From the NCBI RefSeq assembly GCF_016026235.1, contig NZ_CP065613.1: a stretch of 64,000 nucleotides of DNA; one strand, given 5' to 3'. Source of the DNA: Escherichia coli (lineage in GTDB: Bacteria > Pseudomonadota > Gammaproteobacteria > Enterobacterales > Enterobacteriaceae). Position numbers: made by a program. Positions 3,001 through 6,000 of this stretch are shown piece by piece. Position 1 is the stretch's first letter. The number at the start of each line of letters is the position of its first letter.

Positions 3001-6000
3001 ATAGTGAGTCTGGTCCGCAAGATGTTTCAACATTGCAGCTATTTTTACGATCGTATATTTTAAAGGTTGCGTATTTCCTTTTAGATGGATTATCTTCATC
3101 CTTCCATGCTTTTACCAGACCGCGCACAGTTACTTGAGGGCGAATGATCATTACACCATTACAGTAACTGGCTTCCCCGTTAATACCACCATGATAAAAA
3201 AGACTCCCTTCATCTTTAGTATATCTGTTGATATTCCCCCAGCCAGCAAAATTACCCCATCTGACACGTGTAAAATCAAACTTTAAAACAAGACATGTTT
3301 TGGATAAAGCCATGAATGTATCTAAATCCTTTCTCTTAATAGTAACTATATCCAGATAGTTAAAAGGAGGTGAAATATTTTTGTTAATTATCCTGATTAC
3401 ATCTTCAATATCACCCCGTTCATCGAGACGACAATATGCATTTCTTTCTGGCAAGTAATATAACCCAAGGCTGTGCACAAGTTTCTGACTTAATTCGATA
3501 GGTGCACGGCCTTCTTCAACGCCATGAAACCTACGACGATAAATTAATGCCTCTCCCCCTTTGAACACCCCATCTAAAGGTGGCTCAAGATAAATACGAT
3601 GTCCTTGACCTCCACCCCATGACTTTTGAATCTTCCAACAATACTCAACATCCATACGCATATTCTGCAATGCCCATCTATCTGCTGTAGTAACATTTTT
3701 CTCTAGAGCTAGCGCGCCATGAATTAGGACACTATTTCCAATCGCGTAGATAACCACTTCATCATTTTGAGCATTTTCTTTCAGAAATTTAATTGACCTT
3801 TCAGCCTCTATTAACCAAGCGGCATCATCATTCTGTGGCTTTTCCGAAATAGCATGAAGCTCTGTGAATTTAAATTGGCTCATGAGTAATATTCATATCC
3901 TTTTACTTTATCTATAACTGACATCACTTATAAGTTATAAGTTATAAGTTATAAGTTATAAGTTATAAGTTATAAGTTCCCCTTATGAATTAAGAAATAA
4001 CATCAAACAAATACCACCCCTCTCGTAATTTTTTCACTGAATCTGCCATAACTTCCATTACGATGGAATCTACGTACTTGCCAAGAGTAAAATGAGCGCA
4101 ATGACCCGGTATTTGTTATGTTTCTCTCGCGATATGTAGTGCCTCGCGATATGAGGGCTGTCCCACAATTACCTTGAATTTGCCCTAGCCTAGCTGGCCC
4201 CCATCCAGCATTCCAATAATAAAGCTCTGCGACGACTAGGTCCTTTAACTTAACCTGTAGACGCCCATCATGCGGGATGACTTCAAGAGAATTTTCTATG
4301 CCTGGCATCGTCGGTAAAAATAACCGGGATGGATACAAATCATGTTGTAGGTATCCTATCCGACCAAAATCGAGCATTCCCGCCAATGGCCAAGCCATAC
4401 AAGTTTTATTCACCAGTTGTTCAAAAGTTGGTGGAGTTATTAAGGTTGTTGTACTGAGTGGATCCGGAGCTTGGCTGGAAAGCATTTGTTCACGTGTCCA
4501 GAACGATTCAATATGGGATGTCAACGAGTCCGCTCCTTCCTTATCACTGCTTACAGTTTGTGACCACCGAACAATCGACAACTCTACGCACTGTTCCATT
4601 GACATTGAAATGGGCGAGCTAAATGCAATTAGCTCGTCTCCTGGGTTTGCCGCCTCTACTTGAGCAAAGAAAGTTCGCAATGAAGCCTCGATCGCCTTAC
4701 TATCACTTTTGAATTCAGTCGATACTGAGAGCCATTCGGGACGATAAGGTCGAAGAAAAGCCAAAGTTGGATGGATAGGCAACGCCAAGAGAGAATGTTG
4801 CTCGGTCAACTCCATTGGTATCCTCCAGATGTGTCTAGCCACAGCTAACGTGCGAAGATAAGCGGAAATTACGCGAAGGGCTGTTCGAGAGGAAAAATGA
4901 GGGGCAAAGCCCTCTCCCAAGGGCCGAATGAAATATCCTGCATCCCCTTGGTACGGTGCATTTGGATATGCCGTCCGGTTTTTTGTCCATTCGAAGGCCA
5001 TTTGTCGAATAAATGGACAGCGGGTAAAAGTTTCCAACTTGCTAATGGTTATATGGAAGATTCTTGGCAAATCCGTACCTTGAACACTATCAAAGTCATC
5101 GGGAATGATGAAGTCTTCTGGAGCTAGTTCCAAATCAGTATTCATGAGCAGAATCGATAACCCAAAATCTTTCATCAACAATGATGAAAGTGGTGAGGGT
5201 AGAAGAATATTCTCTGCCAACAAAGTCGTAGGAAAGTAGTTAAACTCTTTAATTGCCATCCAGAAAATACATAATACTTCGACAACCTCGGCTTCAAGTT
5301 TGCGCGAGCGCAGCAATTGAAGCAGCAATGATTCGGTTTCAGCTTTCGTCTCAGGCTCTCCCAGTCGAGCGGCAAGCTCCTGGATAGTCCACCACCGAGC
5401 AGACGTAGCAGGCCATCCAAGACGGGCAATAAGAATGCGAAGATCGTTCATTTCACTTCCTGGGCGATTGGCTCGAGCAGTTTTGACATCCAGCAAGGTG
5501 GTTCTAAGGGCAAGGTCCGAGTATCCTCAATCACACAATTAACCATCGTCTCTGTGAACTTTACAGCTTCATCAATGCGATTTTGCTTAACGTAGAAATA
5601 GACCATAACTTCCGATGGAGCTAGGCGTGACGACACTGGCTCATCAAACATGTTGTAGGTTGTTACGGCCACAAATTCATCACAGCGCTGCGGATAATTT
5701 TGGACAACCAGGTCGAGTCTTTTGCAAGTCACATCCACGTTCTCCATGTAACCAATCCATCCCCCATTACGGATCTGTGCATGAACAAGATACTTCCAAG
5801 CTGCAGTTAAGCCACTTAATCTACGTTTTGTTTGAAATGCAAACTCGGAAAGATGTAGAGCTTCCCTCATCCATTTGTTGTTTTTTGCAAATAAAATCTT
5901 ATCCAGTTCGACGAGTAAATTTCGCCCCTGCTTTTGGCTTTCCCAGTGCTGATACCAAGTACGGAGAAGTTTTGGACGCTCTTTGTAATATGGTTCCAGA

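What the first reader, a model, noticed from the sequence alone, without database searches (positions are those of the whole stretch)
3884..4002. Seven tandem TTATAAG heptamers upstream of the 565-aa gene: possible slipped-strand phase-variation switch
A perfect 7x7-bp tandem repeat (3928-3976) lies 45-95 nt upstream of the 565-aa start codon, in the 119-bp gap after the coupled operon. Each unit is TATAA-rich (-10-like). Gain or loss of a unit would shift promoter element spacing or add/remove -10-like hexamers, the classic mechanism of transcriptional phase variation. Such repeats are rare in E. coli intergenic DNA.
Basis: seen in the sequence. Interest (0 to 1): 0.72.

Follow-up and report, generated by a model that had tools for sequence, protein, structure and literature searches.

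The report
Hypervariable 7-bp repeat before defence-island gene

Summary
The array is confirmed: (TTATAAG)x7.3 at 3928-3978, the only perfect array with a unit of 4 bp or more in the 64-kb window. It lies in the 119-bp untranslated gap between two minus-strand genes, g3 and the 565-aa gene g4. These are the last genes of a four-gene cluster containing a NACHT gene, on a ~13.5-kb island at ssrA.

Among 52 independent loci of the array-bearing lineage, copy number is 2, 3, 4, 5, 6, 7, 8, 9 or 12, and every array is pure. Haplotypes identical over 3,161 flanking nt carry up to five different lengths. Sister lineages (Enterobacter-type, Photorhabdus) have one unit plus a degenerate one and never vary, so this is a young microsatellite born from a proto-repeat.

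Hypermutability by slippage is therefore shown. The switch function is not:
- The tract (14-84 bp) cannot be a -35/-10 spacer.
- No promoter-like site scores above background, and the candidates do not change with copy number.
- Stop codons in all six frames exclude a frameshift switch.
- Predicted ribosome-site accessibility is flat for three or more units.

Best reading: a new 7-bp VNTR, like E. coli O157 VNTR-36. At most it tunes g4 expression in a graded way, as the hmw1A repeats do in Haemophilus influenzae.

The parts
3928..3978 (.). Heptanucleotide array: (TTATAAG)x7 plus TT on the + strand, which is (CTTATAA)x7 in the sense of the genes. The core TTATAA is a palindrome.
   Evidence: TRF score 102 with 100% matches; sequence read directly; copy number 2-12 in 52 related loci.
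3884..4002 (-). 119-bp untranslated spacer between the g3 stop and the g4 start, 78% A+T, with stop codons in all six frames.
   Evidence: There is no Rfam match and no consensus promoter or terminator. Its length equals 70 + 7n in all related loci.
3923..3938 (.). Remnant of a palindrome, ATCACTTATAAGTTAT. It has one mismatch to the perfect 16-bp palindrome ATCACTTATAAGTGAT found at this place in Photorhabdus.
   Evidence: No second copy elsewhere in the window.
3898..3902 (-). Shine-Dalgarno-like AAGGA, 14 nt before the g4 ATG. The block AAAAGGA.AT.AA.TT.ACTCATG is conserved in Lonsdalea and Serratia.
   Evidence: Sequence read directly. Predicted unpaired probability is 0.82 for all n of 3 or more.
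3905..3933 (-). Best intergenic promoter-like match: -35 TTATAA (last unit, 3928-3933), a 17-nt spacer, then -10 TAAAGT (3905-3910). It is weak and identical in every allele.
   Evidence: PWM scan score 7.3, against a median best score of 7.9 per random 420-nt stretch of the window. Not reported by the consensus scan.
2186..3883 (-). g4: 565-aa protein of unknown function immediately downstream of the array.
   Evidence: ORF. About 1,000 homologues at 45-80% identity. No match in Pfam, PADLOC, NCBIfam, PHROGs or PDB. AF2 model has pLDDT 68.6 with no significant fold match.
4003..5451 (-). g3: 482-aa hypothetical protein as annotated (the ORF extends to 5496 with a TTG start). Its stop lies 26 nt before the array.
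   Evidence: No family match.
5448..9875 (-). g2: 1,475-aa NACHT/STAND NTPase with an N-terminal Cap4/PD-(D/E)XK-like nuclease region.
   Evidence: Pfam NACHT 4e-12. PADLOC Avs1b 4e-11 and SAVED_PDDEXK 3e-8. RefSeq annotation 'NACHT domain-containing protein'.
9880..13662 (-). g1: 1,260-aa hypothetical protein, first gene of the cluster. It is found directly next to g4 homologues in other Proteobacteria.
   Evidence: No family or PDB match.
1163..2032 (+). 289-aa ORF between g4 and the island integrase (the integrase 3' part is at 76-687). It travels with the island.
   Evidence: 93% identical copy next to g4 in Photorhabdus.

Best explanation
The array is a young, truly hypermutable heptanucleotide microsatellite (a VNTR). 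It is not a demonstrated gene switch.

Shown:
- It arose in one lineage of a mobile ~13.5-kb ssrA island from a two-unit proto-repeat. That proto-repeat is GTTATCA-CTTATAA in Photorhabdus and TTTATCA-CTTATAA in the Enterobacter type.
- It now gains and loses whole 7-bp units far faster than the flanks accumulate substitutions.

Inferred mechanism of change:
- Replication slippage is the likely cause.
- The palindromic TTATAA core helps by letting the single strand fold back on itself.
- A 7-nt loop is too large for MutS-dependent mismatch repair (established knowledge for E. coli).

What a unit change does: it adds or removes 7 bp of A/U-rich, G-poor untranslated leader between the g3 stop and the g4 ribosome site. 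The junctions 'left flank + first units' and 'last units + right flank' are the same in every allele with three or more units. So no core promoter hexamer, spacer, ribosome-binding site or reading frame changes; only a distance changes.

I therefore infer that copy number has no effect, or at most a graded length-dependent effect, on g4 expression, and that it is not a classic ON/OFF promoter-spacing switch.
For: - Copy number: array-type loci have n = 2(2), 3(13), 4(18), 5(7), 6(4), 7(2), 8(3), 9(2), 12(1). All arrays are perfectly pure.
- Variation within identical haplotypes: four haplotypes identical over 3,161 flanking nt carry {3,4,5,6}, {5,6,7,8,9}, {3,4} and {4,5,6}.
- Flanks barely vary: only 24 segregating sites in 3,161 nt across 51 loci. 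L074 (n=2) and L075 (n=8) have identical g4 DNA.
- Stability below two perfect units: all 10 Enterobacter-type loci and Photorhabdus have one unit plus a degenerate one. These lineages differ from the window by 3.3-4.8% in g4, against 0.4% or less within the array clade. Lonsdalea and Serratia orthologous gaps have no repeat.
- Length-dependent instability: the haplotype with n of 5 or more is the most variable, and the overall distribution peaks at 3-4.
- Self-folding: the single-stranded array folds on itself at -12.9 kcal/mol, z -7.1.
- No promoter effect: no promoter-like site scores above background, and the candidates are independent of n.
- No translational route: stops in all six frames, and SD/AUG accessibility is flat for n of 3 or more.
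- Precedent: E. coli already has hypervariable 6-7-bp VNTRs with no known regulatory role, including the intergenic 7-bp VNTR-36 with 3-15 repeats (PMC3321953).
Against: - The tract sits 45 nt before a start codon, exactly where intergenic repeats do modulate expression in other bacteria: hmw1A (ATCTTTC)n (PMC12721329) and nadA (TAAA)n (PMC2791445).
- Consensus and PWM scans cannot exclude weak, activator-dependent or alternative-sigma promoters, an H-NS or UP-element effect of an 86% A+T tract, or effects on mRNA processing.
- No expression data, transcription start site or read-level data were available.
- The gene next to it belongs to a defence-like cluster, a class of genes for which phase variation is known to be advantageous.
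Confidence: 0.6

Rival explanations
1. The array is a real contingency locus or rheostat. Its length sets the expression level of g4, either through the length or processing of the g4 5' leader (as with the hmw1A heptamers) or through the spacing of distal promoter or operator elements (as with the nadA TAAA tract). Slippage would then produce subpopulations with different levels of the last component of the defence-like system.
For: - Hypermutability is shown: n = 2-12, varying within identical haplotypes.
- Position: 45 nt upstream of the g4 ATG, in an otherwise conserved ~84-nt spacer.
- The array replaced one arm of an operator-like 16-bp palindrome present in Photorhabdus.
- Known precedents are a heptamer tract in a 5'UTR whose length is inversely related to expression and a distal tract between operators.
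- The 86% A+T tract lies directly upstream of the best (weak) promoter-like site.
Against: - No promoter sits above background and none changes with n.
- There is no complementary arm for an hmw-type hairpin, and ribosome-site accessibility is flat with n.
- The length distribution peaks at 3-4 units, not at long, highly mutable lengths. hmw tracts have at least 11 units in nature.
- There is no enrichment of any helical phase: n mod 3 gives 20/20/12.
- Sister lineages and other genera run the same gene cluster without the array.
- The cluster is often broken by IS elements, which suggests weak selection.
- No second operator copy exists in the window.
Confidence: 0.28
2. The heptamers are an array of binding sites (heptad iterons or an operator) for a DNA-binding protein, for example a ribbon-helix-helix or HTH regulator of the island. 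Copy number would then titrate or strengthen repression.
For: - The ancestral sequence is a perfect palindrome, ATCAC-TTATAA-GTGAT.
- Each unit carries the palindromic hexamer TTATAA.
- Heptad arrays bound cooperatively by small repressors are known, for example omega of inc18 plasmids (from memory, not tested).
Against: - The expansion destroyed the ATCAC arm instead of multiplying it.
- Copy number is unconstrained at 2-12.
- No further copy of the palindrome exists elsewhere in the window, for example before g1.
- No small regulator gene is adjacent to the gap.
- The array is absent from sister lineages with the same genes.
Confidence: 0.05
3. The length differences are assembly or sequencing artefacts, not biology.
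For: Tandem repeats can be collapsed by short k-mer assemblers. Logan contigs (k=31) would break at five or more units.
Against: - Differences are always exact multiples of 7 bp with perfect units.
- They are seen in closed RefSeq chromosomes as well as draft assemblies from many laboratories.
- The longest tract (84 bp) is shorter than a standard read.
- The n=1 lineage is invariant in 10 of 10 contigs.
- Records that were fetched both from RefSeq and from the assembly collection gave the same count each time.
Confidence: 0.01

Closest known systems
E. coli O157 MLVA loci with 6-7-bp units, in particular VNTR-36 (Vhec7): 7-bp unit, outside an ORF, 3-15 repeats, 13 alleles (PMC3321953)
   Same: It is also in E. 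coli, has a short 7-bp unit and is intergenic. Copy number differs between closely related strains over a similar range (here 2-12), and it sits on accessory DNA. No regulatory role has been demonstrated.
   Different: The unit sequence and the locus are different (chromosomal ssrA island rather than pO157). This tract lies immediately upstream of a start codon in a defence-like gene cluster. Its birth from a proto-repeat can be traced here.
Haemophilus influenzae hmw1A/hmw2A (ATCTTTC)n heptanucleotide repeats in the 5'UTR (PMC12721329; also PMC8262952, PMC2424069 listed)
   Same: It is a heptanucleotide unit lying between the upstream region and the start codon, so it is not in a coding frame and not a -35/-10 spacer. 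If the tract here has an effect, it would most plausibly be of this graded kind.
   Different: In hmw the tract is proven to be transcribed. It forms a long hairpin with a G-rich arm that is cut by RNase III, and expression is inversely proportional to n, with at least 11 units in nature. Here the range is 2-12 units with a mode of 4. There is no complementary arm and no predicted change at the ribosome site. The transcription start is unknown and there are no expression data.
Neisseria meningitidis nadA (TAAA)n tract upstream of the core promoter (PMC2791445)
   Same: An A/T-rich repeat lies upstream of the core promoter region and changes the distance between flanking sequences rather than the core promoter itself.
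   Different: nadA depends on NadR operators on both sides of the tract and on IHF. No operator pair, repressor or IHF site is identifiable here, and the only palindrome was half destroyed by the expansion.
Promoter-spacer repeats, i.e. tracts between -35 and -10, such as the H. influenzae hif (TA)n tract or the meningococcal porA/opc homopolymers (from general knowledge; review PMC11868660)
   Different: It is excluded by geometry. The tract is 14-84 bp long against a 16-18-bp spacer, and no -35/-10 pair brackets it.

Membership tests
Bacterial VNTR / microsatellite (slipped-strand hotspot) | Perfect head-to-tail array of a short unit | tested here: met
   TRF 100% matches with 7.3 copies. 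All 52 related arrays are pure.
Bacterial VNTR / microsatellite (slipped-strand hotspot) | Copy number differs in whole units between closely related genomes, while the flanks stay the same | tested here: met
   n = 2-12. Up to five alleles occur within haplotypes identical over 3,161 nt. There are 24 segregating sites in the flanks across 51 loci.
Bacterial VNTR / microsatellite (slipped-strand hotspot) | Instability requires a threshold number of perfect units and rises with length | tested here: met
   The one-unit lineages are invariant (11 of 11 loci). The haplotype with n of 5 or more is the most diverse.
SSR contingency locus (phase-variable gene) | The tract is placed so that a unit change alters the reading frame or the -35/-10 spacing | tested here: not met
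   The tract is intergenic with stops in all six frames. It is 14-84 bp long, so it cannot be a promoter spacer. The promoter-like candidates do not change with n.
SSR contingency locus (phase-variable gene) | Expression of the adjacent gene differs between length alleles | not testable with these tools
   No expression, transcription-start or reporter data. In silico, SD/AUG accessibility is the same for n of 3 or more.
SSR contingency locus (phase-variable gene) | High-frequency, reversible length change within a single culture | not testable with these tools
   No reads are available. Only between-isolate variation could be measured.
hmw-type 5'UTR heptamer switch | The repeat is transcribed as part of the 5'UTR of the regulated gene | not testable with these tools
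   The transcription start is unknown. No terminator was found between g3 and g4, so read-through transcription of the tract is plausible.
hmw-type 5'UTR heptamer switch | A long hairpin forms between the repeats and a complementary (G-rich) arm and is processed by RNase III | tested here: not met
   RNAfold pairs the tract only weakly with itself (A-U pairs). There is no complementary arm and no change at the ribosome site. The feature is defined in PMC12721329.
nadA-type distal-spacing switch | Repressor operators flank the tract on both sides | tested here: inconclusive
   One degenerate palindrome overlaps the proximal end of the tract. No second copy exists in the window. No regulator has been identified.

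The most novel reading that the evidence does not exclude
The array could be a newly evolved contingency locus in Enterobacteriaceae. Slippage of a heptamer born only within a clade of 0.4% or less divergence would tune or switch the last gene of an uncharacterised NACHT-containing anti-phage-like system. That gene, g4, has a conserved partner, g1, in other Proteobacteria. This would give E. coli repeat-driven heterogeneity in immunity, a mechanism otherwise typical of Haemophilus, Neisseria and Campylobacter.
Probability: 0.2. Interest if true: 0.7.

Novelty: new member of a known kind. Interest (0 to 1): 0.45.

Why it matters
E. coli is usually described as switching genes by DNA inversion or Dam methylation (review PMC11868660), not by simple repeats. 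A repeat that clearly mutates fast and sits 45 nt in front of a gene in a defence-like island is therefore a cheap, well-defined test case. It could show whether repeat-driven variation of immunity genes exists in Enterobacteriaceae.

Even if the array has no function, two things make it useful:
- It is a clean natural example of microsatellite birth, with the series proto-repeat, two perfect units, then a 2-12-unit array all visible.
- It is a ready-made high-resolution typing marker for strains carrying this island.

The neighbouring genes g1, g3 and g4 are widespread, highly conserved and completely uncharacterised.

Tried and rejected
- **Promoter-spacing switch.** The consensus scan found 0 promoters and 0 terminators in 3500-4500. 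My PWM scan gave a best score at the window's background median, with the same candidates for n = 1-12. Rejected as the mechanism.
- **Translational or frameshift switch.** Rejected: the tract is intergenic and all six frames are closed.
- **RNA-structure switch of the hmw type.** Accessibility of AAGGA and AUG is flat for n of 3 or more, and there is no complementary arm. Not supported.
- **Known RNA element.** No Rfam match at E of 1 or less in 3300-4600.
- **Operator hypothesis.** The Photorhabdus palindrome has no second copy in the window, and the expansion destroyed one arm. Weak.
- **Helical-phase selection.** Three units equal two turns, but n mod 3 classes are 20/20/12 with no enrichment.
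- **Rho-dependent polarity.** The tract is G-free but only 14% C, and the whole gap has 12 C against 14 G by my count. It is a poor rut candidate and I did not pursue it. RNase E cleavage in the A/U-rich tract is possible but untestable here.
- **Function of g4, g3 and g1.** No hits in PADLOC, NCBIfam, PHROGs, Pfam, PDB sequence search, or an AF2 model with Foldseek. The only hint is a weak Foldseek match of g4 to Avs3 (E 0.03).
- **Literature.** No paper mentions the RefSeq protein accessions.
- **Repeat conservation in distant homologues.** TRF on the upstream regions of 24 g4 homologues found nothing comparable.
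Full report
**1. The observation**

The sequence at 3928-3976 is seven perfect TTATAAG units, and the period continues for two more bases. TRF reports 3928-3978, period 7, 7.3 copies, 100% matches, score 102. All the genes here are on the minus strand, so in gene sense the unit is CTTATAA.

The 565-aa ORF (g4) is 2186..3883(-) and the upstream ORF (g3) stops at 4003. That leaves a 119-bp gap at 3884-4002, with the tract 45 nt upstream of the g4 ATG. The g4 start is supported by an invariant Met1 and a conserved N-terminus in 30 homologues. The array is the only perfect tandem array with a unit of 4 bp or more and at least 4 copies in the whole 64-kb window.

**2. Where it sits**

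The window is E. coli. The locus occurs in only 13 of 5,426 complete E. coli genomes, always on the chromosome. RefSeq records show this order: ssrA, intA, a 261-289-aa ORF, g4 (565 aa), g3 (482 aa), a 1,475-aa 'NACHT domain-containing protein', g1 (1,260 aa), an integrase fragment, then the CP4-57-type genes (yfjI, cbtA/yeeU-type pair, ypjA). This is a ~13.5-kb island inserted at ssrA in tandem with the CP4-57 remnant.

The NACHT protein matches Pfam NACHT (4e-12). In PADLOC it matches Avs1b (4e-11) and has an N-terminal PD-(D/E)XK/Cap4-like region (3e-8). The proteins g1, g3 and g4 match nothing in PADLOC, NCBIfam, PHROGs, Pfam or PDB sequences. An AlphaFold model of g4 (pLDDT 68.6) has no significant PDB fold match.

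g4 has about 1,000 homologues at 45-80% identity in many Proteobacteria. In Lonsdalea, Serratia and Photorhabdus the order g1, NACHT, g3, g4 is kept. In Halopseudomonas, Comamonas and a Burkholderiaceae MAG, g1 is followed directly by g4.

**3. Copy number across related genomes**

I collected 62 distinct loci from RefSeq genomes and from the assembly collection, using four exact g4 protein variants and two sister variants.

The 52 loci of the array-bearing lineage are E. coli plus assemblies whose g4 protein is labelled Citrobacter, Kosakonia or Enterobacteriaceae by its sources. Their copy numbers are:

| n | 2 | 3 | 4 | 5 | 6 | 7 | 8 | 9 | 12 |
|---|---|---|---|---|---|---|---|---|---|
| loci | 2 | 13 | 18 | 7 | 4 | 2 | 3 | 2 | 1 |

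Every array is perfectly pure, and the gap length is always 70 + 7n.

Four haplotypes that are identical over 3,161 flanking nucleotides (1,400 nt of g3, both spacer flanks and all of g4) carry these lengths:

| Haplotype | Loci | Copy numbers (count) |
|---|---|---|
| 1 | 11 | 3 (5), 4 (4), 5 (1), 6 (1) |
| 2 | 8 | 5 (2), 6 (1), 7 (1), 8 (2), 9 (2) |
| 3 | 8 | 3 (1), 4 (7) |
| 4 | 7 | 4 (4), 5 (2), 6 (1) |

Across 51 loci the same 3,161 sites have only 24 segregating positions. The tract has nine length alleles and needs at least ten length changes inside SNP-free haplotypes. L074 (n=2) and L075 (n=8) have identical g4 DNA. One site therefore changes on the order of a thousand times faster than an average flanking site.

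Assembly artefact is very unlikely. The differences are exact multiples of 7 in closed and draft genomes from many sources. The longest tract is 84 bp. Records that were fetched from both collections gave the same count each time.

**4. Origin**

The orthologous gap in Photorhabdus tasmaniensis (g4 95% identical) reads ...AAGGGGAA GTTATCA CTTATAA GTGATGTCAG..., which is one unit preceded by a degenerate one. There, ATCACTTATAAGTGAT is a perfect 16-bp palindrome. The Enterobacter-type lineage reads TTTATCA CTTATAA GTGGTG and is identical in all 10 contigs.

These one-unit lineages differ from the window by 3.3% and 4.8% in g4 DNA, whereas all array-bearing loci are within 0.4%. Lonsdalea and Serratia (74-80% protein identity) have an unrelated spacer without any repeat. 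Only the block around the ribosome site is conserved. None of 24 more distant g4 loci has a comparable upstream array.

So the array is young. A C-to-A change made two perfect units, after which slippage took over. The visible series is 1+1 degenerate (stable), then 2, then 3-4 (the mode), then up to 12, with more variation at greater length. This is the textbook life history of a microsatellite. The system evidently works without the array in sister lineages.

**5. How the length changes (inferred)**

Replication slippage is the obvious mechanism. Two features should favour it:
- The unit contains the palindrome TTATAA, so the single-stranded tract folds back on itself. The + strand folds at -12.9 kcal/mol against -2.6 ± 1.5 for shuffles (z -7.1), and the - strand at -7.5 (z -3.4). 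This would stabilise slipped intermediates.
- A 7-nt loop is larger than the 1-4-nt loops that E. coli MutS-dependent repair corrects. This is established knowledge and was not tested here.

**6. Does it switch the gene?**

Five independent checks give no support:
- *Spacer geometry.* At 14-84 bp, the tract cannot be the 16-18-bp spacer between -35 and -10.
- *Quality of the units as -10 elements.* Each unit gives TATAAC, which lacks the near-invariant final T. The consensus scan finds no promoter and no terminator on either strand in 3500-4500, against 2.6 expected promoter-like sites in shuffles.
- *PWM scan.* The best score upstream of g4 is 7.7, and the best intergenic one is 7.3 (-35 TTATAA in the last unit, 17 nt, -10 TAAAGT, 21 nt before the ATG). 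The median best score for random 420-nt stretches of the window is 7.9. The list of candidates and their scores is identical for n = 1-12. This follows from the structure: with three or more identical units, every window of about 35 bp is 'left flank + units', 'units only' or 'units + right flank', whatever n is. Only distances change.
- *Reading frames.* All six frames across the gap contain stop codons, so no frame-dependent switch is possible.
- *RNA level.* If the tract is transcribed, the predicted unpaired probability of AAGGA and AUG is 0.82 and 0.92 for every n from 4 to 13 (0.78 and 0.91 at n=3). The tract pairs only weakly with itself, and there is no complementary arm like the one in the hmw hairpin. 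No Rfam family matches.

Population data add indirect arguments against an evolved switch:
- The distribution peaks at 3-4 units, the least mutable lengths.
- The three helical-phase classes (n mod 3) are 20/20/12, with no enrichment.
- The cluster is repeatedly broken by IS elements in carriers.

None of this excludes a graded effect of leader length, an effect of A/T-rich DNA (UP-element or H-NS type), or an effect on mRNA processing. Those need experiments.

**7. Comparison with known systems**

- *Closest in kind.* The hypervariable 6-7-bp VNTRs used to type E. coli O157 are closest. VNTR-36/Vhec7 has a 7-bp unit outside any ORF, 3-15 repeats and 13 alleles (PMC3321953).
- *Closest functional analogue.* The H. 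influenzae hmw1A (ATCTTTC)n heptamer lies in the 5'UTR. Expression is inversely proportional to n through a repeat/G-rich hairpin cut by RNase III, and natural tracts have at least 11 units (PMC12721329). The hairpin feature was tested here and not met.
- *nadA-type distal spacing.* This needs operators on both sides of the tract (PMC2791445). Only one degenerate palindrome is present and no second copy exists.
- *Promoter-spacer repeats.* These are excluded by geometry.

I therefore file the array as a new member of the VNTR/microsatellite kind and not as a member of the phase-variable contingency-locus family. The positional criterion for that family was tested and not met, and the expression and within-culture criteria are untestable here.

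**8. Verdict**

My estimates:
- About 0.6 that the array is a neutral or at most mildly modulating VNTR.
- About 0.28 that it measurably tunes g4.
- About 0.05 that it is a protein-binding array.
- About 0.01 that the length differences are an artefact.

Interest is moderate (0.45). Fast-mutating repeats directly in front of a gene are unusual in E. coli, the neighbouring genes are conserved unknowns in a defence-like island, and the decisive experiments are simple.

Noticed in passing
window 9880-13662 (g1) and 2186-3883 (g4); loci L032, L034, L049, L028: Homologues of the 1,260-aa g1 and the 565-aa g4 are directly adjacent, about 80 nt apart, in Halopseudomonas, Comamonas and a Burkholderiaceae MAG, with no NACHT or g3 gene between them. 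g1+g4 may be a conserved two-gene module into which NACHT+g3 was inserted in Enterobacterales. None of g1, g3 or g4 has any family, PDB or fold match.
   Followed up: partly
L023 (Photorhabdus tasmaniensis), about 60-45 nt upstream of the g4 start at 8001; corresponds to window 3923-3938: A perfect 16-bp palindrome, ATCACTTATAAGTGAT, sits where E. coli has the array. The Enterobacter type has ATCACTTATAAGTGGT, which would keep an RNA stem through a G-U pair. It may be an operator or a small hairpin. No second copy exists in the window.
   Followed up: partly
L003 (MS15047), L004 (FDAARGOS_943), L009 (F1053), L014 (GCA_901482675): The four-gene cluster carries independent IS insertions: IS1 in g4, IS600 in the NACHT gene, three IS3/IS1203 copies across NACHT and g1, and IS1 next to a truncated NACHT gene. 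The cluster is decaying in a fair fraction of carriers.
   Followed up: no
window 3869-3895 (-): An 8-codon mini-ORF, ATGAATATTACTCATGAGCCAATTTAA, overlaps the g4 start codon out of frame. The only Shine-Dalgarno-like AAGGA is 14 nt from the g4 ATG, an unusually long spacing that is conserved in Lonsdalea and Serratia.
   Followed up: no
window 39350-39701: A tandem array of period 90 bp x 3.9 copies, 92% matches, TRF score 588. By eye the unit looks like a REP/BIME-type extragenic palindrome cluster.
   Followed up: no
window 24401-24502: Imperfect 12/24-bp tandem repeats (GGATCCGG.../GGATTTGGGTTG), 78-84% matches. By coordinate mapping to NZ_AP021891 they fall inside the ypjA/ehaD adhesin-like autotransporter gene. 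They could be a coding VNTR.
   Followed up: no
window 2186-3883 (g4 model m1f79e13f8f2b): The only notable fold hit of the g4 model is a weak local match to Avs3 bound to phage terminase (8dgc_B: E 0.03, probability 0.96, 228 columns, TM 0.22). It is below significance but is in the same functional neighbourhood as the adjacent NACHT gene.
   Followed up: no
window 13854-14342 and 76-687: Two integrase sequences share near-identical stretches (…IRPDQLPQLMQTMR…AEAAEARWDEIDFEAKEWKIPAARMKMNRDHTVPL…). These are the 3' part of the island's intA at the window start and a degenerate fragment beyond g1. This fits a tandem integration at ssrA next to the CP4-57 remnant.
   Followed up: partly
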